A DNA stretch of 64,000 nt, taken from the IMG/VR virus record IMGVR_UViG_3300037722_000380, positions 27,379-91,378 of that record; one strand, 5' to 3'. How positions within the stretch are numbered: the first letter of the stretch is position 1; every line of letters starts with the position of its first letter. The notes under the pieces are model-generated. The model was not told the origin of the DNA and ran no database searches. It saw only the letters and a list, made by a program, of their open reading frames with translations. Of the stretch, positions 1,164 through 51,203 are shown one piece after another. The stretch is from a virus. Both the position numbers and the translations under genes were made by a program.

Positions 1164-3899
1164 ATGGCGACAGAACGCCTAGAAATTATTATCACCAGCC
1201 GTGGTCTCGGACAGACGCAGCGGGCGATTAACCGCGTCGGAAAGGAAGCTTCTACAACTCGGGGTGCCCTGGCATTCATGCGGGCGGCTCTCGTTGTCGT
1301 GGCATCGGCGCGCGTTGTGGCGGGTATTGCGCAGCAGCTTGACTTGTTTACTGCATTGGGTAACCGGCTACGGCTTGTTACTAACGATGTTCAGGAGTTG
1401 ACGGCTGTCCAAGATGCTCTATTTTTAATCGCTCAAAAGACACGGCAATCGTTTGAGGAAACAGTTGTTGTATTTCAGCGTTTGGCTCAGTCTACCGGAA
1501 AATTGAAGCTAGATTACAAAGAACTTCTTGAGCTTACTGAACTTGTGAATATTGCTGTGGCCCTGTCAGGAGCTAGTGCTCAGTCCGCCGCAGCCGGTCT
1601 TCGGCAGTTTGCCCAAGGATTGGCTTCAGGTGTGACCCAAGGCGATGAGTTGCGGTCGGTAGTCGAGAACTTGCCGTTCTTGGCCGATGTTATCGGACGG
1701 CAATTCGGAATTGCTGGTGGAGAGTTGCTTGCTTTCAACAAAGCAAATCCGGGCATCATCAAGACGCGGGATATTGTCGAAGCTCTTCGGAAAGAAGCGC
1801 CTCGGCTTTTGGAAGAGTTCAAGAATAGTTCTAAGACCATTGGACAAGGATTCGAAGTTCTAAGCAATTCACTTACATTCTTTTTCGGAAAGTTGAGCCA
1901 GGCTACGGGTGCCGGTCGGTTCTTTGCTGATAGCCTAATTGTTATTGCTGATAATATTGACAAGGTAGTTGTTGCTCTAGCTTCTCTGGTAGGGATAGTT
2001 GCATTCAATTTCTTGATTGCTCAAGTGGCAGTATTGCATCGCACATTAGCCCTACTTGTAGGATTCGCACTTTCATCATTCGTGAGTCTCGGGCGGGTTT
2101 TGGTATTACCATTCACTTTAGCTGTTCAAGCTGCGGTTCCTCTCTTGGGAATTATGAGGGTACTCGGGACAACGGTTCTCGCAACTGTTGCGCAGTTTGC
2201 GCGGTTTATCGGCATCACTGTGATCATGGGCGGTCTCCGGACGGCCGTTCTTGGTGTAACGGCAGCCATGGCGGCGCTGCGGGCAGTGACTCTTACTCTG
2301 GTTCTCTTGGCCGGAGTTAGTCGGGCGGCTGCGGCAGGGTTCGTAGTAATGCGGACTGCCGGGTTGGGTCTAGCGGCTCTACAAGGCATTTTGGGCGGAA
2401 TTCGGATTGCTCTAGTGGCGATAGCTCGGGCAGTCTTTTTAAACCCGTTGTTCATTGGGGGAGCTTTGATTATCGGAGGATTGGTAGTCGCGTTCTTTCT
2501 CTTGCGCGACAGGATTGAAGCCGTAATTGATAGTCTTGGCGGTATTCGTAATGTCTTCAATACCGTCGTTGCGGGAGCCGGAGCGGCGGTTCAAACCATC
2601 ATACAAAACTTCAGTCAGCTTCCTCGGGCAATTAAGGACATTGCTATTCAGGCTGCGAACTTTTTGATTGAGAATTTCGAGAAAGCGGTGAATGGGGCGA
2701 TTTCTCTGCTTAATAATCTTCCAGGAATAGATATTGAATTTGTGGATTTCGGTCGTATTGAAAACGATGCAGCGGGAGCCGCAGCCAATGTAAAGAAATT
2801 TTTCATCGAATCATTTGATGAAATCAAGCGGTCTGATCCGTTAGAAATTACAAAACAAAAAGTGGAAGACCTTATCAATCTTTTGAAGAGCTTTACGTCC
2901 GGAGCCATCAATCTGGATGCGCTCTTAGCTTCTTTGGAGGGGAAGCTTCCGAAAGCAGTCGGGGGTAACCTAAGCGATATTCAGAAGTTGAAGGGAGCCT
3001 ACAAATCTTTGCTTCAGGAAATTTCCCCCTTGGCAAAAGAGTTTTTCGAATTAAAAGTTGCACAAGAGCTTGTGGCAGAGGCTCAAAAGGCCGGGATTGA
3101 TACGGCTAAACAGTTTGGGTTAACTCATGAAGAGATTCTTCGGCGGGTACAACGTAATCTAGCCGGATTTAGTACAGATTTAGCTGTTATGGAAGAAGAG
3201 ATAACAATAGTATGGAAAGCTGTCCTCAACGGCGCAGGTTCGGTTGAAGAAGCTTTGCGCAAAATTCGGGATATTCAAATAGCGTTTCTTGAAGATCAAG
3301 TCGATCTCGGCTCTGGCATCGAACGGACGTTTTTGAAACTTCAGCGGGAAGTTGAAGATGTTGCTTCTGCTATTGAAGATGCGATGAACACGGCGTTTAA
3401 GTCGGCCGAAGACGCGGTTGTAGAGTTTGTGCAAACCGGGCGTATTCAAGTTGGAACTCTTGCTAAAGATATCCATGAACAACTCTTACGGGGCGCTGTC
3501 AAAGCACTTATTGCTGACCTTGGTGCGGCGCTCGGTCTTGGACAAAAGACTAGCGGTTCTCTGTTAGGCGATGTCTTTGGTAATTTGTTTGGACGTAGCG
3601 GTGGGGGTGGTGGACAGTTACCATTCGATTTTCCCGGTTTTGCAAGCGGTGGAAGCTTCAATGTAGGACCGGGCAACTCGCTGGGCCAGCTTCCGGGCGT
3701 GGATAATCGGCTTGTGGCTTTTCGGGCACGGGATGGAGAGAATGTATCTGTAGCTCGGCCGGGTCAAGGACATGCACGGCCGGTGAATGTTAACTTCACG
3801 GTAATGACACCAGATGCAAATAGTTTTCGTCGGTCACAGGGCCAAATTATGAATGATGCACAGATCGCTTTGCGGCGCGCTAATTTGAGGAATGGCTAA
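1164..3899 (+). CDS. Tape measure protein
   Basis: 911 aa, Ala/Leu-rich helical; N-terminal tape-measure motif (QFAQGLASGVTQGDELRSVVENLP), central hydrophobic stretch, C-terminal GFASGGSF. Confidence 0.95.
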   Translation: MATERLEIIITSRGLGQTQRAINRVGKEASTTRGALAFMRAALVVVASARVVAGIAQQLDLFTALGNRLRLVTNDVQELTAVQDALFLIAQKTRQSFEETVVVFQRLAQSTGKLKLDYKELLELTELVNIAVALSGASAQSAAAGLRQFAQGLASGVTQGDELRSVVENLPFLADVIGRQFGIAGGELLAFNKANPGIIKTRDIVEALRKEAPRLLEEFKNSSKTIGQGFEVLSNSLTFFFGKLSQATGAGRFFADSLIVIADNIDKVVVALASLVGIVAFNFLIAQVAVLHRTLALLVGFALSSFVSLGRVLVLPFTLAVQAAVPLLGIMRVLGTTVLATVAQFARFIGITVIMGGLRTAVLGVTAAMAALRAVTLTLVLLAGVSRAAAAGFVVMRTAGLGLAALQGILGGIRIALVAIARAVFLNPLFIGGALIIGGLVVAFFLLRDRIEAVIDSLGGIRNVFNTVVAGAGAAVQTIIQNFSQLPRAIKDIAIQAANFLIENFEKAVNGAISLLNNLPGIDIEFVDFGRIENDAAGAAANVKKFFIESFDEIKRSDPLEITKQKVEDLINLLKSFTSGAINLDALLASLEGKLPKAVGGNLSDIQKLKGAYKSLLQEISPLAKEFFELKVAQELVAEAQKAGIDTAKQFGLTHEEILRRVQRNLAGFSTDLAVMEEEITIVWKAVLNGAGSVEEALRKIRDIQIAFLEDQVDLGSGIERTFLKLQREVEDVASAIEDAMNTAFKSAEDAVVEFVQTGRIQVGTLAKDIHEQLLRGAVKALIADLGAALGLGQKTSGSLLGDVFGNLFGRSGGGGGQLPFDFPGFASGGSFNVGPGNSLGQLPGVDNRLVAFRARDGENVSVARPGQGHARPVNVNFTVMTPDANSFRRSQGQIMNDAQIALRRANLRNG

Positions 3900-47892: not shown

Positions 47893-48269
47893 TTCATCTT
47901 GTTGCGGTCTAACTTCGGTTCGGGTTTAACCGTCGCATCCTCTGGCTCACTGCCAAATAAAGCGGCTAGTGGATTTTGCGGAGGCTCACGCTCGATAATA
48001 AACGCGTCACCGAATTCTATATAAGACAAATCGAGGCCCCACTGAGGATTGTCCCACGTCTCTTCCGGAGGTAAATCACACGCAATTGCAAGTTGCCTCC
48101 AAACCGCCCTCAATTCGAGCCTCAAAGTGTCCTGGATTAATCCCTGCCGTGCCTTAAAATCTTCAGCAAGTTTGATATTAGCTTCTGTAGCAGCTTCGAC
48201 TATCGAGACCCAATTCTTGGCATAGCCGATAGCTTCCGCCGGAACCTTATGGATTTTAGGTTTAGCCAT
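47889..48269 (-). CDS. Hypothetical protein
   Basis: Coupled ORF. Confidence 0.55.
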   Translation of the reverse strand: MAKPKIHKVPAEAIGYAKNWVSIVEAATEANIKLAEDFKARQGLIQDTLRLELRAVWRQLAIACDLPPEETWDNPQWGLDLSYIEFGDAFIIEREPPQNPLAALFGSEPEDATVKPEPKLDRNKMN

Positions 48270-48543
48270 TCGGAAACTCCATCCTCTTCAATTTGATTAT
48301 TTGCTTTTGCAAAGATTCAATCTTAGCATCTCTCATCGTTACAGCCCGGCGCGCCGCACTCAGATAAGACCTGTGCCAGTCTTTATCTTCTCCGTGATAG
48401 TACACATCTCCGTGATAGTACACATTGTCCTGGTCCTGACTTTCGACAACTTTCACCATATCCGGGTTAACGTCGGCACAAATCTCCACGTCAGCCGTGA
48501 AAATTCCTTTCGTCAAGGCGTATTTCGTGATCCAGACTTGCAT
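48262..48543 (-). CDS. Conserved phage hypothetical protein
   Basis: MQVWITKYALTKGI..YHGEDKDWH..KIESLQKQI. Confidence 0.65.
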   Translation of the reverse strand: MQVWITKYALTKGIFTADVEICADVNPDMVKVVESQDQDNVYYHGDVYYHGEDKDWHRSYLSAARRAVTMRDAKIESLQKQIIKLKRMEFPNG

Positions 48544-48554
48544 CGGTGCGACTC

Positions 48555-48854
48555 CTAGTATGGGGGTTTAACTGCCAGCACGGCTTCTTTCACCGCCTGA
48601 AAATCGACTCCCCCAAGGTCATACACGGTTTGTGCCATGGAGTCAAATTTAAACCACATGCGGGCTTCCCGAATAATCCGAAAATGCGCCGCTATCTCGG
48701 ACATACCCGTCTGCCCTATGGCGTCGAGTGCCGCACGCAAGCATACTTCTCGCCATAGAAGCTCTTCGGGTGACCGGGGCTCGCTGATGAGCGAGAAGGC
48801 CCGCGCAACCCGCTCGGGAACATCTTCCGATGGGCTGTACGTCCTGCCGGGCAT
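48555..48854 (-). CDS. Hypothetical protein
   Basis: Coupled ORF. Confidence 0.5.
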   Translation of the reverse strand: MPGRTYSPSEDVPERVARAFSLISEPRSPEELLWREVCLRAALDAIGQTGMSEIAAHFRIIREARMWFKFDSMAQTVYDLGGVDFQAVKEAVLAVKPPY

Positions 48855-49124
48855 CTAAGGCTTGCACGCGATAGCCTCCGGACGGTCGATCACATTCGGG
48901 GAAGCTGATGCGGGTTCGGGCAGTTGATGAGCCCGATCTAGCACTACTGCATAATCGACGGTTACGACGTGTTGCACCTGTTGAACTTCGGGGTGCTGTA
49001 TCGTTTCGTGGATGAAGAACGGTTCGCAGGTGTGTAGCCGCCATCCCTCGCGACCAAGCTCATTGAGCAAGGCTTCAAGATCGGTGCCGGAAGCGTGGAG
49101 AACCTTGTACTCGAAAGTTACCAT
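48855..49124 (-). CDS. DUF4177-like small protein
   Basis: FEYKVL..LEALLNELGREGWRL. Confidence 0.6.
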   Translation of the reverse strand: MVTFEYKVLHASGTDLEALLNELGREGWRLHTCEPFFIHETIQHPEVQQVQHVVTVDYAVVLDRAHQLPEPASASPNVIDRPEAIACKP

Positions 49125-49132
49125 TTCGCAGC

Positions 49133-49161
49133 ACCATATCCCGTTTTGCCGTAAAAGTCAA
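49133..49161 (-). promoter_or_regulatory. GGCAA-type promoter just downstream of pentamer array
   Basis: TTGACT-tttac-GGCAA-aacggga-TATGGT. Confidence 0.6.
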
Positions 49162-49170
49162 TGTTTATAT

Positions 49171-49416
49171 AAACCATGCCACGCCGAGCCACGCCCCGCC
49201 CTGCCTTGCCTCGCCGGACCTTGCCTGCCACGCCATGCCTGCCCTGCCTCGCCCGACCATGCCTCGCCCGACCATGCCGCGCCCGGCCACACCTTGCCCC
49301 GCCTTGCCGAGCCGGACCCCGCCTGCCCTGCCGCGCCGAGCCTCACCCGACCATGCCTGCCCTGCCTCGCCCGACCAAGCCCGACCTTGCCGCGCCTTGC
49401 CGAGCCTCGCCACGCC
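49171..49416 (-). repeat. GGY-NN pentamer array (candidate guide RNA array, VIPR-like)
   Basis: 50 GGC/GGT triplets on minus strand, each followed by a variable dinucleotide (46) or a single A (4); starts 16 nt after the RAMP-like gene stop. Confidence 0.9.
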
Positions 49417-49432
49417 TCGTATCAAAAAAGAG

Positions 49433-50050
49433 TTACGCCGGAGTGGATGCCAGCCGGAACCGACCGTATTCACCACCCCTCTCCGGACGCCATTCACATA
49501 AACCGACTCCGAACCCAGCCCGGTTGATAAGATTTGCGATGTCATTGACTGTGAGCAAATCCGCGTCATATTCGAGGTCAAACGTGACGCTCCACTTGGG
49601 AAATTCCGGACGATAACGAAGATCGGTTGAACCCTGACCAACACGAACATAATCTTCGCGCATCACGGGCTTATCACAAATCATCGGAAGTACACCGTTA
49701 GCGTCGTCACAGGGAAGAAACAACGCCTTCCGAACCAGAGTCTTTTCGACACCCAAATCCTTGTGTGCGGCTCCAATTATCGCAGCTTTCAGAGCCAGGA
49801 CCGGAACTCCGTGCCGACCGTCTTCGGTACGATACATGGCCGATTCGAATTCGGCCTTGGGATCGCGGATATCCCGCTCTTTCGTCTTTCGTCCTGCGTG
49901 CTTAGCCCGCATCTGCTCCTTAGCCTTCTCAGCCCACTTATGCTGAATCAGGCTAGACCGGCTCTCGATTGTCAGCGTAAGCCGGTTCTCTTTAACCGCC
50001 GGGATACTTGCCTCAATGGCCTTCGTTTCGGCAACTTTCGCCTTCGCCAT
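49433..50050 (-). CDS. Stand-alone RAMP/Cas7-like protein (Vipr-like)
   Basis: LTLTIESRSSLIQH; HGVPVLALKAAII (cf. IPGSSLKGALR); thumb MREDYVRVGQGSTDLRYRPEF; G-loop RAGFGVGLCEWRPERGGEYGRF; AAGGAG RBS. Confidence 0.7.
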   Translation of the reverse strand: MAKAKVAETKAIEASIPAVKENRLTLTIESRSSLIQHKWAEKAKEQMRAKHAGRKTKERDIRDPKAEFESAMYRTEDGRHGVPVLALKAAIIGAAHKDLGVEKTLVRKALFLPCDDANGVLPMICDKPVMREDYVRVGQGSTDLRYRPEFPKWSVTFDLEYDADLLTVNDIANLINRAGFGVGLCEWRPERGGEYGRFRLASTPA

Positions 50051-50116
50051 ATTAATATCTCCTTTCAAGCGCGTGCAATTGAAATGGCTGCACGCATCGC
50101 CACAACAGAAGCTACG

Positions 50117-50650
50117 TTACCGTAACCGGTTCAACTCTTCATGGGCTTTAGTAATATGGTCATCCGCCGCCGCAACGACAGGGCGAACGGCTTTACTTGA
50201 AATAGACAAAAGTTCACGTACTGCAAGCTGAGCCCCGTTAAGCCGATGCTGAGCACTATCGAGAGCCCGTGCAAATTTATCCGAATCCTTTATCAGCGTC
50301 GCCGGGCTGGCATAGGTTCCGGACGAGCCGTATTTATGGTTCTTTGGAGGAACATGAACGAAGCCTTTGATCGTCTCATTCTTCGGTTGATGCGGTGTCA
50401 TTTTCACCACGACCCGGATAGAACCGATCAAATACCGCGCTTGGTCTAGCCGATGCGCCCGAGCCGCCGCAGTATCGTCCCACGTAAAGGCCAAGTGCAT
50501 CGGCGACTTCGGATCAGAAGCTTCTTTAACGACATTTTCTGCGGTCAAAGCCTGCTTTTGTTCCAGTTGATCAAGAACCGGTCCGACCTTATTCGGGTCT
50601 ACTGCCTTTGGAAGCCGAGTTCCTTCCCGAAATTCATAGCGACGCGTCAT
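50117..50650 (-). CDS. Accessory protein co-transcribed with RAMP-like gene
   Basis: LTAENVVKEASDPKSPMHLAFTWDDTAAARAHRLDQARYLIGSIRVV; GGAGG RBS. Confidence 0.65.
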   Translation of the reverse strand: MTRRYEFREGTRLPKAVDPNKVGPVLDQLEQKQALTAENVVKEASDPKSPMHLAFTWDDTAAARAHRLDQARYLIGSIRVVVKMTPHQPKNETIKGFVHVPPKNHKYGSSGTYASPATLIKDSDKFARALDSAQHRLNGAQLAVRELLSISSKAVRPVVAAADDHITKAHEELNRLR

Positions 50651-50713: not shown

Positions 50714-50720
50714 AAGAATT

Positions 50721-51203
50721 TTACTTCGTCCGTGGACGATTCCAAACTTCGAGAACCCGACCCTGACCTTCCAGTATATTGGTCAATCGGTTCCAAAGCG
50801 CATCGCGATCATTAGCGCCGTAACCGAGAGCATACGCCGCTTTTTTGGCATCTTCCCGCGACAACCCCGCCCGTTTAGCGAGTAGAGTATAAACATCTTC
50901 CGAGTCCTCGCCCCCGATAAGTTTCGGCTGAAGTTCCTTGAACCCATTGGGAATTCCGCGCTCGTTGCGGTAAATAAGAAATCGCGCAAACTGAGACGGA
51001 CGGCAGATAATCGTAATTCCTGTCCATACGCCGCTAGTCAAAGCCAGAAACTCCTTTTCTGTTATTCCAAAAGCATCATGGAGAAGAGCGACCACTTTAG
51101 AAGCCTCTCTATTATGAGTACGCCTTCCATTTGGCTCCATTTGATACCAATAGGATGACGGAATATAAAACTTCACGCGGTCAGTGCTCATCTTATCGGT
51201 CAT
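50721..51203 (-). CDS. Hypothetical protein
   Basis: GGAGG RBS, TAATG overlap. Confidence 0.55.
   Translation of the reverse strand: MTDKMSTDRVKFYIPSSYWYQMEPNGRRTHNREASKVVALLHDAFGITEKEFLALTSGVWTGITIICRPSQFARFLIYRNERGIPNGFKELQPKLIGGEDSEDVYTLLAKRAGLSREDAKKAAYALGYGANDRDALWNRLTNILEGQGRVLEVWNRPRTK

What the first reader, a model, noticed from the sequence alone, without database searches (positions are those of the whole stretch)
49171..49416. Grammar of the pentamer array: information-rich dinucleotides, single-A punctuation and internal duplications
Seen (minus strand, NN only): GT GA TC AA GC AA CG TT CG GA AG |A| AT CG GA TC GC AG |A| GG CC TC AA GG AA GT CG GC AT CG GA AT CG GA AG |A| AT GT |A| AA CC GA AA AG GG GT TC GT AT TT. 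Eleven different dinucleotides occur, so this is not a simple microsatellite. Four 4-nt units (GGC A) split it into segments of 11, 6, 16, 2 and 11 NN, and three of these breaks are preceded by GGC AG. 40 triplets are GGC and 10 are GGT, and GGT is mostly followed by CG or CC. Blocks such as AT-CG-GA recur. Inference: GGCAGGGCAGGC marks guide boundaries or processing sites, and slippage diversifies guides. Reading NN as gapped targets (e.g. GTnGAnTCnAAnGC..) is a testable guess.
Basis: partly seen in the sequence, partly recalled or inferred. Interest (0 to 1): 0.75.

Follow-up and report, generated by a model that had tools for sequence, protein, structure and literature searches.

The report
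Phage VIPR guide array with commas
The five-letter repeat tract is the guide-RNA array of a phage VIPR system, a CRISPR-related DNA-silencing system first described in 2026 preprints; its single-A "commas" are that system's known guide separators, so this is a further example of a known kind, and no targets were found.

Summary
There are 50 GGY triplets (40 GGC, 10 GGT), 46 variable dinucleotides of 11 kinds, and four 4-nt GGCA units that cut the tract into 11, 6, 16, 2 and 11 NN.

It is a VIPR vrRNA array of the 'staggered' kind (bioRxiv 10.64898/2026.04.26.720920, fig. S18). The gene 16 nt upstream matches the solved SUSP1 Vipr protein and folds like Csm3/Cas7. A conserved partner gene precedes that gene.

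In 142 arrays next to relatives of this gene:
- every array lies on the gene's strand;
- the one-base spacer is A in 84% and follows GGC in 98%;
- comma-bounded segments peak at 10 NN, and 68% have 9-12.

GGCAGGY is therefore the general delimiter. The link between GGT and a following C is real in the window (7/8 vs 3/38) and across the family.

The NN-n gapped reading matches the published one-base-skip code, but I found no target. The phage's own genome gave nothing above shuffles, and seeds in IMG/VR and JGI metagenomes extended only at chance level. No RNA data exist.

Slippage has shaped this array, but it is identical across samples. This scan has already met VIPR arrays in at least 12 other genomes.

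The parts
49171..49416 (-). vrRNA (guide) array: 50 GGY triplets, 46 NN and 4 single-A units. It starts 16 nt after the vipr stop codon and ends GGCATGGTTT.
   Evidence: The same architecture lies next to Vipr homologues in 86 other loci, always on the vipr strand.
49362..49416 (-). Segment 1, candidate guide of 11 NN: GT GA TC AA GC AA CG TT CG GA AG
   Evidence: The length lies in the family's modal range of 9-12.
49358..49361 (-). 4-nt unit GGCA (comma 1), inside the 27-nt exact repeat
49328..49357 (-). Segment 2, 6 NN (AT CG GA TC GC AG). It is shorter than the published 9-16 repeats and atypical for the family (2.3% of segments); probably a remnant.
49324..49327 (-). 4-nt unit GGCA (comma 2)
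49244..49323 (-). Segment 3, 16 NN. It contains a perfect 15-nt tandem duplication (49278-49264 and 49263-49249); without it the segment would have 13 NN.
49240..49243 (-). 4-nt unit GGCA (comma 3), inside the second copy of the 27-nt repeat
49230..49239 (-). Segment 4, 2 NN (AT GT). It is too short to be a guide. It resembles the 2-NN end piece (A | xT TT) that closes related arrays.
49226..49229 (-). 4-nt unit GGCA (comma 4), preceded by GT rather than AG
49171..49225 (-). Segment 5, 11 NN (AA CC GA AA AG GG GT TC GT AT TT). The last two NN form the family's usual array end, GGCATGGTTT.
49433..50050 (-). vipr gene: a 205-aa Cas7-like RAMP protein (an alternative TTG start at 50068 gives 211 aa)
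   Evidence: phmmer against PDB sequences finds 'SUSP1 Vipr protein' 36pp_D at E 2.4e-5, and the family profile finds it at E 4.4e-10. The thumb Y-R-P and the G-loop [D/E]-W-R-P align. The AF2 model has pLDDT 86.8, and all top 50 Foldseek PDB hits are Csm3/Cmr/Cas7 RAMP subunits.
50117..50650 (-). vap-like accessory gene, 177 aa (phrog_15946)
   Evidence: Homologues lie directly beside vipr in 53 of 88 related loci, before or after it. The AF2 model has pLDDT 94.8, but no clear structural match was found.
50718..50745 (-). Sigma-70-like promoter match upstream of vap-vipr-array (consensus match only)
   Evidence: The number of such matches in the region is no higher than in shuffles.

Best explanation
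The tract is the guide-RNA (vrRNA) array of a VIPR system, encoded as vap - vipr - array on the minus strand of an uncultured 93-kb phage.

Mechanism, by analogy with the published SUSP1 and P. fulva systems: the array is transcribed with or after vipr. One Vipr protomer (a Cas7-like RAMP) binds each pentamer. The protein buries the constant GGY and presents the two variable bases. The NN of one guide together pair with double-stranded DNA that reads NN-x-NN-x, skipping one base (usually the codon's third). The filament then blocks transcription of a rival mobile element.

The four GGCA units are one-base register shifts that end one guide and start the next (a 'staggered' array). Segments 1, 3 and 5 (11, 16 and 11 NN) are plausible guides. 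The 6-NN and 2-NN segments are probably remnants of duplication and deletion, which the 15-nt tandem repeat and the 27-nt repeat across two commas show has happened here.

Shown here: the sequence grammar, the identity of the Vipr gene, the conserved three-part locus, and the family-wide rules.
Inferred: transcription, processing at the commas, DNA binding, and what is targeted.
For: - Vipr identity. The adjacent ORF matches the solved SUSP1 Vipr (E 2.4e-5 alone, 4.4e-10 as a family profile). The Arg of the thumb and the [D/E]WR of the G-loop, which contact G1/G2/Y3 in the cryo-EM paper, are conserved. The predicted fold matches only Cas7-type RAMPs.
- Two-way association. Arrays were parsed next to relatives of this gene in 86 loci; the 142 distinct ones of 12 or more units all lie on the gene's strand. 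Conversely, 84 of 120 IMG/VR loci found by the DNA pattern (GGCNN)x8 alone encode a Vipr-profile ORF.
- Punctuation. One-base spacers make up 11.6% of units, are A in 84% and follow GGC in 98%. Segment length between two of them peaks at 10, with 68% at 9-12, inside the published 9-16 repeats. Related arrays share whole comma-bounded segments in different orders. The preprint describes such staggered arrays.
- Variability. NN are hypervariable while the protein is conserved. The closest relative (76% identical Vipr, same gene order) has entirely different NN. Two samples with the same Vipr protein differ at 5 sites in 2424 nt, 4 of them in the array.
- Codon phase. The composition of 2650 interior NN fits codon positions 1+2 better than other phases, as the wobble-skip code predicts.
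- No self-target. The phage's own genome has no match above shuffles under any skip rule, as the preprint reports for its systems.
Against: - No target was found for any of the window's guides. Eight-NN to ten-NN one-skip seeds in IMG/VR and JGI metagenome contigs gave 0-25 hits each, and none extended beyond chance.
- Only three of the five segments have a length seen for working vrRNAs.
- There is no 3' tail or pseudoknot of the type II kind.
- Staggered arrays were not among the architectures the preprint confirmed by small-RNA sequencing.
- No RNA run holds this phage, so expression and processing are untested.
- Similarity to the characterised SUSP1 Vipr is confined to the C-terminal half.
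Confidence: 0.85

Rival explanations
1. It is a VIPR array, but a decaying or idle one. Duplications and deletions have scrambled it, so few or none of its segments act as guides any more. Alternatively it acts only as a sponge or assembly scaffold for Vipr.
For: Segments of 6, 2 and 16 NN are atypical, at 2.3%, 1.8% and 0.9% of family segments. A 15-nt tandem duplication and a 27-nt repeat show recent remodelling. No target was found.
Against: All 50 GGY triplets are intact, with no degenerate triplet, whereas relatives often carry some. The vipr and vap reading frames are intact. The array is identical in contigs of three runs. Segments 1 and 5 have the modal length. Missing targets are expected for an uncultured phage whose host and rivals are not in the databases.
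Confidence: 0.1
2. It is a DNA-level or generic RNA element unrelated to guiding. Examples: a G-rich non-template tract that forms R-loops or two-layer G-quadruplexes (a replication origin or transcription block), or an upstream regulatory tract for the promoter of the next gene.
For: GG runs recur every 5 nt on the coding strand. A sigma-70-like promoter follows directly (49161-49133). The RNA folds more stably than shuffles (z -3.9). This was my own first guess.
Against: This reading does not explain the strict link to a Cas7-like gene on the same strand in 142 of 142 arrays. It does not explain the hypervariable NN between invariant GGY, the A commas at about 10-unit spacing, or the codon-like NN composition. 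The downstream DUF4177 gene is not conserved next to related arrays.
Confidence: 0.03
3. It is protein-coding (a glycine/alanine-rich repeat) or a plain microsatellite.
For: Most of the six frames are open through the tract, because GGYNN rarely makes a stop codon.
Against: A 5-nt period with four 4-nt units shifts the frame continually. The tract lies between a stop codon and the next gene's promoter. Eleven dinucleotide kinds at 3.37 bits per NN is not a microsatellite.
Confidence: 0.01

Closest known systems
VIPR systems with 'staggered' vrRNA arrays (bioRxiv 10.64898/2026.04.26.720920, text and legend of fig. S18)
   Same: A stand-alone Vipr RAMP gene with one accessory gene. The array has constant GGY and variable NN. 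Adjacent guides meet at a one-base overlap, so there is no repeat handle, ribozyme or tail between them. The system is carried by a phage.
   Different: I could not see the paper's figure or tables, so the VIPR type (I-VII) and the vap class are not assigned. This array has irregular segments (6, 2 and 16 NN) and internal duplications. The preprint did not confirm staggered arrays by small-RNA sequencing.
Type II VIPR of Escherichia phage SUSP1 (same preprint; cryo-EM in 10.64898/2026.04.26.720927; PDB 36pp)
   Same: The Vipr protein is homologous, and the thumb Arg and G-loop [D/E]WR that hold GGY are conserved. The pentamer code is the same GGY/NN. The guides are of comparable length (9-16 repeats).
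   Different: Similarity is weak and confined to the C-terminal half (E 2.4e-5). SUSP1 vrRNAs are separate ~100-nt units, each capped by an invariant 3' tail with a pseudoknot. Here the guides abut through GGCA commas and no tail is present. SUSP1 targets (a satellite phage) are known; here none was found.
Class 1 CRISPR-Cas backbone (Cas7/Csm3 filament on crRNA)
   Same: RAMP fold: all top structural matches are Csm3/Cmr subunits. One protomer binds each fixed step of guide RNA, and thumb insertion breaks the guide-target duplex periodically.
   Different: There is no CRISPR repeat-spacer array, no cas1/cas2 and no other cas genes. The step is 5 nt with 3 bases buried and 2 read, rather than 6 nt with 5 read. 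The guide information is non-contiguous.
TRAP-trp leader RNA of Bacillus (11 G/UAG triplets separated by 2-3 nt); from my own knowledge, not tested here
   Same: A homo-oligomeric protein reads a constant triplet that recurs with short variable spacers.
   Different: TRAP ignores the spacers. In VIPR the spacers are the message. The proteins are unrelated.

Membership tests
VIPR system | A Vipr protein (minimal RAMP: RRM core, G-loop, thumb) encoded at the locus | tested here: met
   ORF 49433-50050(-): phmmer finds SUSP1 Vipr 36pp_D at E 2.4e-5, and the family profile finds it at E 4.4e-10. The AF2 model has pLDDT 86.8, and Foldseek's top 50 are all Csm3/Cmr/Cas7 RAMPs.
VIPR system | Residues that hold GGY in SUSP1 Vipr (thumb R138; G-loop D177, W178, R179) | tested here: met
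   The HMMER alignment pairs YRP with YRP and GDWRP with CEWRP, a D-to-E change. R147, R188 and P189 are invariant and E186 nearly so in 36 relatives. The equivalent of H17 was not aligned.
VIPR system | Tandem pentamers of constant GGY and variable NN (the preprint's search asks for at least 4 YNNGG units) | tested here: met
   50 units with no degenerate triplet; 33 phased matches against 0.15 expected.
VIPR system | Array in the intergenic DNA flanking vipr, in a minimal locus with one accessory (vap) gene | tested here: met
   The array starts 16 nt after the vipr stop, on the same strand. The 177-aa neighbour has homologues beside vipr in 53 of 88 loci. Which published vap class it belongs to could not be tested.
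VIPR system | vrRNAs of 9-16 repeats are expressed and bound by Vipr | not testable with these tools
   No RNA run holds this DNA. Segment lengths of 11, 16 and 11 fit; 6 and 2 do not.
VIPR system | Guides match DNA of other mobile elements under the one-base-skip rule, and do not match their own genome | tested here: inconclusive
   Own genome: no match above shuffles for skips 0-3. IMG/VR and JGI metagenome seeds of 8-10 NN extended only at chance level. Mismatch-tolerant searches of whole collections were not possible.
Staggered vrRNA array (sub-architecture of VIPR) | Adjacent guides share a one-base boundary, with no handle, tail or ribozyme between them | tested here: met
   Four GGCA units give 4-nt steps. 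Across the family the spacer is A in 84% and follows GGC in 98%, the modal segment is 10 NN, and segments are exchanged as cassettes. No Rfam family, including hammerhead, scored in 48000-50500. Actual RNA ends are untested.
Type II VIPR (SUSP1-like) | Each vrRNA is capped by an invariant structured 3' tail (pseudoknot) | tested here: not met
   Nothing but pentamers lies between the guides. The array runs from 16 nt after the stop codon to GGTTT, and the next gene's promoter follows.
CRISPR-Cas | A repeat-spacer array with cas1/cas2 or a multi-gene effector module | tested here: not met
   Tandem and direct repeat scans of the locus show only the pentamer array. The neighbouring genes have no Cas families in Pfam or PHROGs.

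The most novel reading that the evidence does not exclude
The comma grammar may be read by Vipr itself. The GGCA step (C in 98%, A in 84%, with a bias to A/T in the NN just before it) would stop one filament and seed the next. One unprocessed transcript could then carry several independent guide filaments, with no nuclease needed.

A second layer of grammar, not described in the parts of the preprints I read (figures and supplementary tables were not available), couples the 'constant' pyrimidine to the first variable base: GGU is used 49% of the time before C but 27% before purines.

Short segments such as the 6-NN and 2-NN ones would then be spacers or end caps rather than junk.
Probability: 0.2. 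Interest if true: 0.5.

Novelty: new member of a known kind. Interest (0 to 1): 0.3.

Why it matters
On its own this is one more VIPR locus, in an uncultured 93-kb phage from sediment or soil metagenomes. It adds little to a system already described, and the same scan has already met that system in at least a dozen other genomes.

Its use is as data for the least-tested part of that work, the staggered arrays. The family statistics gathered here give a concrete, testable rule for calling guides in such arrays: a GGCA delimiter, a modal guide of 10 NN, a biased NN before the comma, the coupling of GGT with a following C, and a GGTTT end.

They also point to cultured, tractable carriers. Cheoctovirus mycobacteriophages and Gordonia phages have the same layout, so RNA ends and targets could be measured there.

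Tried and rejected
- **Rfam.** An E-value scan of 48000-50500 found nothing relevant.
- **My first guess.** I first read the tract as an R-loop/G-quadruplex or generic protein-binding element. I dropped this once the Vipr link was found.
- **Targets in the phage's own 93-kb genome.** Skips 0-3 with 200 shuffles each gave nothing above the shuffles.
- **Targets in IMG/VR by exact one-skip seeds.**
  - s1 NN1-10: 0 hits.
  - s1 NN4-11: 11 hits.
  - s3 NN1-8: 3 hits.
  - s3 NN9-16: 16 hits, all unrelated 'AIREIRES'-type helices.
  - s5 NN1-8: 9 hits.
  - s5 NN4-11: 25 hits.
  - The rest of each guide matched at chance level. The best hit, L238 at 20/22, lies in a 286-aa ORF of an AT-rich ~14-kb contig (function not determined) and is expected by chance among about 10 independent seed groups.
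- **Targets in JGI metagenome contigs.** s3 NN1-10 gave 6 contigs from 2 unrelated genes that look cellular (not annotated). The other six NN matched 4 of 12 bases.
- **Family guides against held DNA.** No hit reached 85%.
- **One relative's guide against its host family.** A 12-NN guide of a Nonomuraea prophage relative gave 0 hits at up to 3 mismatches in 301 genomes of its family.
- **Alphaproteobacterial genomes.** These could not be searched. The window is a virus record without relatives, and no handle for that class was available. The host remains unknown.
- **RNA evidence.** No RNA holder is listed for this DNA.
- **Population variation.** Contigs of X1, X2 and X3 are identical over the array. 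One low-depth X3 contig has a 65-nt 'goes back' joint at 49361->49297, which could equally be a misassembly in a repeat.
- **Keeping the RNA unstructured.** I tested whether GCC is avoided for this reason. It is not supported: the array folds more stably than shuffles (z -3.9).
- **The 11-of-16 NN alphabet.** It is not unusual for the family.
- **Fold of the vap-like protein.** Foldseek against PDB gave nothing at E <= 0.001. VIA-align matched only the C-terminal helical hairpin, with a few PadR-like regulators among generic coiled coils. No family was assigned.

Full report
**The observation.** On the minus strand from 49416 to 49171 the sequence parses without remainder into 50 units that begin GGC (40) or GGT (10). 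Five phased GGY occur 33 times in the window, all in this tract, against 0.15 expected. The tract lies between the stop codon of a 205-aa ORF (49433-50050) and a sigma-70-like promoter for the next gene.

**How the identification came about.** A distant DNA search of the locus hit only the array, and only in Cheoctovirus mycobacteriophages. These carry the same kind of GGCNN tract with GGCA units. A plain (GGCNN)x8 pattern found at least 120 IMG/VR contigs. That led me to two 2026 preprints:
- VIPR systems consist of a minimal Cas7-like RAMP protein (Vipr), an accessory gene (vap) and vrRNAs.
- The vrRNAs are made of 9-16 GGY/NN pentamers.
- The NN of a guide pair with DNA reading NN-x-NN-x (the one-base skip, usually the codon wobble), and the filament silences transcription.
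- Seven types exist. One architecture is the 'staggered' array, in which neighbouring vrRNAs overlap by one nucleotide (fig. S18). The preprint did not confirm that architecture by small-RNA sequencing.

**Membership tests.**
- The upstream ORF matches the solved SUSP1 Vipr sequence (36pp) at E 2.4e-5, and a profile of 36 relatives matches it at 4.4e-10. The alignment pairs the thumb Y-R-P and the G-loop [D/E]-W-R-P, which are the residues that hold G1, G2 and Y3 in the cryo-EM structures.
- Its AlphaFold model (pLDDT 86.8) finds only Csm3/Cmr/Cas7 subunits among its top 50 PDB matches.
- The 177-aa gene upstream has homologues directly beside vipr in 53 of 88 related loci, in either order. 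Its fold stayed unassigned.
- The locus is therefore vap - vipr - array.

**The grammar across the family.** I fetched 63 viral and 23 genomic loci that encode relatives of this Vipr and parsed every array. Among 142 distinct arrays of at least 12 units:
- All lie on the vipr strand.
- Spacers are 2 nt in 86%, 1 nt in 11.6% and 3 nt in 2.4%.
- The single base is A in 84% of cases, and its triplet is GGC in 98% against 70% overall.
- Segments between two single-A units peak at 10 NN. 68% have 9-12 and 79% have 8-13.
- The NN before the comma is biased: A at the first position in 51%, T at the second in 53%, and C almost never first. AG, the local form, occurs in only 3.6%.
- In one group of related phages, whole comma-bounded segments recur in different orders and next to different neighbours, like cassettes.
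- Conversely, 84 of the 120 pattern-only loci carry a Vipr-profile ORF.

The delimiter, however, is GGCA followed by GGY, not the 12-mer GGCAGGGCAGGC. Two of the three copies of that 12-mer sit inside a 27-nt exact repeat 118 nt apart.

**GGT before C.**
- In the window, 7 of 8 NN that start with C follow GGT, against 3 of 38 others (p 1.7e-5).
- Across the family, GGT is used 49% of the time before C, 39% before T and 27% before purines (p 3e-12).

The 'constant' pyrimidine is therefore coupled to the first variable base. I could not explain this. One idea, that GCC is avoided to keep the RNA unstructured, is not supported, because the array folds more stably than shuffles (z -3.9).

**Do the NN look like guides?**
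- The closest relative (76% identical Vipr, same gene order) has an array of about 530 nt with the same commas and the same GGTTT end, but entirely different NN.
- Two samples carrying the same Vipr protein differ at five sites in 2424 nt, and four of those lie in the array.
- The composition of 2650 interior NN fits codon positions 1 and 2 much better than other phases, with about 70% in sense orientation. The wobble-skip code predicts this.

**Targets.**
- The phage's own genome has no match above shuffled guides under skips 0-3. The preprint reports the same absence of self-targeting.
- Exact one-skip seeds of 8-10 NN from segments 1, 3 and 5 were scanned in IMG/VR and, for one seed, in JGI metagenome contigs. 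They gave from 0 to 25 hits. The remainder of each guide matched at chance level, and the hits fell in unrelated genes.
- Mismatch-tolerant searches of whole collections, as used in the preprint, were not available. The host is unknown, and alphaproteobacterial genomes could not be addressed.
- No RNA run holds the phage.

Targeting by these particular guides is therefore inferred from family membership and has not been shown.

**Slippage.** The array bears clear marks of duplication:
- a perfect 15-nt (three-unit) tandem copy that lengthens segment 3 from 13 to 16 NN;
- the 27-nt repeat across commas 1 and 3;
- a 2-NN segment that resembles the end piece of related arrays.

Against rapid slippage, the array is identical in contigs of three metagenome runs, two of which may be its source. 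One low-depth contig shows a 65-nt back-joint that may be an assembly artefact. Close relatives differ by point changes or by wholly different guides. Duplication has reshaped this array, but I found no evidence that slippage is the main way guides diversify.

**Verdict.** This is a well-supported new member of a known kind, a VIPR locus with a staggered guide array. The exact delimiter motif and the role of slippage are overstated. This scan has already reported VIPR arrays in at least 12 other genomes; I treated those notes as leads only. The modest additions here are the quantitative comma grammar, the Y3-N4 coupling, and the pointer to cultured mycobacteriophage and Gordonia phage carriers.

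Noticed in passing
L001 (Mycobacterium phage Saal) ~3001-3245 and L002 (Quico) ~3001-3240; phage hits H21-H52: 27 Cheoctovirus mycobacteriophage records and 8 Gordonia phage records match the window's Vipr by tblastn. Most matches are 37-42% identical over about 90% of the protein; three of the Gordonia records are weaker or partial. In Saal and Quico a GGCA-punctuated GGCNN array lies just upstream and a vap-like gene just downstream. All are annotated 'hypothetical protein', and in Saal the gp51 gene call overlaps the end of the array. These are cultured, tractable systems for testing staggered arrays.
   Followed up: partly
142 arrays in L123-L208; window 49171-49416: The 'constant' pyrimidine depends on the next base. 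GGT is used 49% of the time before C, 39% before T and 27% before A or G. The NN before a comma is biased to AT/TT. Neither rule appears in the preprint text I read.
   Followed up: partly
L263 vs L264 (closest relatives, same Vipr protein, two samples): Four of the five substitutions in 2424 aligned bases fall within the 325 nt of array. One of them turns a GGCA comma context into an ordinary unit.
   Followed up: partly
window 48855-49161 (-): The gene after the array (89 aa, weak DUF4177 match) has its own sigma-70-like promoter (TTGACT-17-TATGGT) directly after the array's GGTTT end. It is not conserved next to related arrays, so it is probably not part of the system.
   Followed up: partly
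window 49297-49361, run X3: One low-depth contig of an independent sediment metagenome joins 49361 back to 49297, a 65-nt repeat that starts exactly at comma 1. This is either a natural duplication variant or a misassembly in the repeat.
   Followed up: no
window 49171-49416 (-) as RNA: The array RNA is predicted to fold more stably than dinucleotide shuffles (-119 kcal/mol, z -3.9), through in-register pairing of the periodic G and C/U. Whether this matters before Vipr loads is unknown.
   Followed up: no
run X1 and X3 loose contigs near 49188-49236: Short contigs from the same metagenomes match the array only partly and continue as other GGC-periodic sequence. Other pentamer arrays, and so probably other VIPR-carrying phages, share the habitat.
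   Followed up: no
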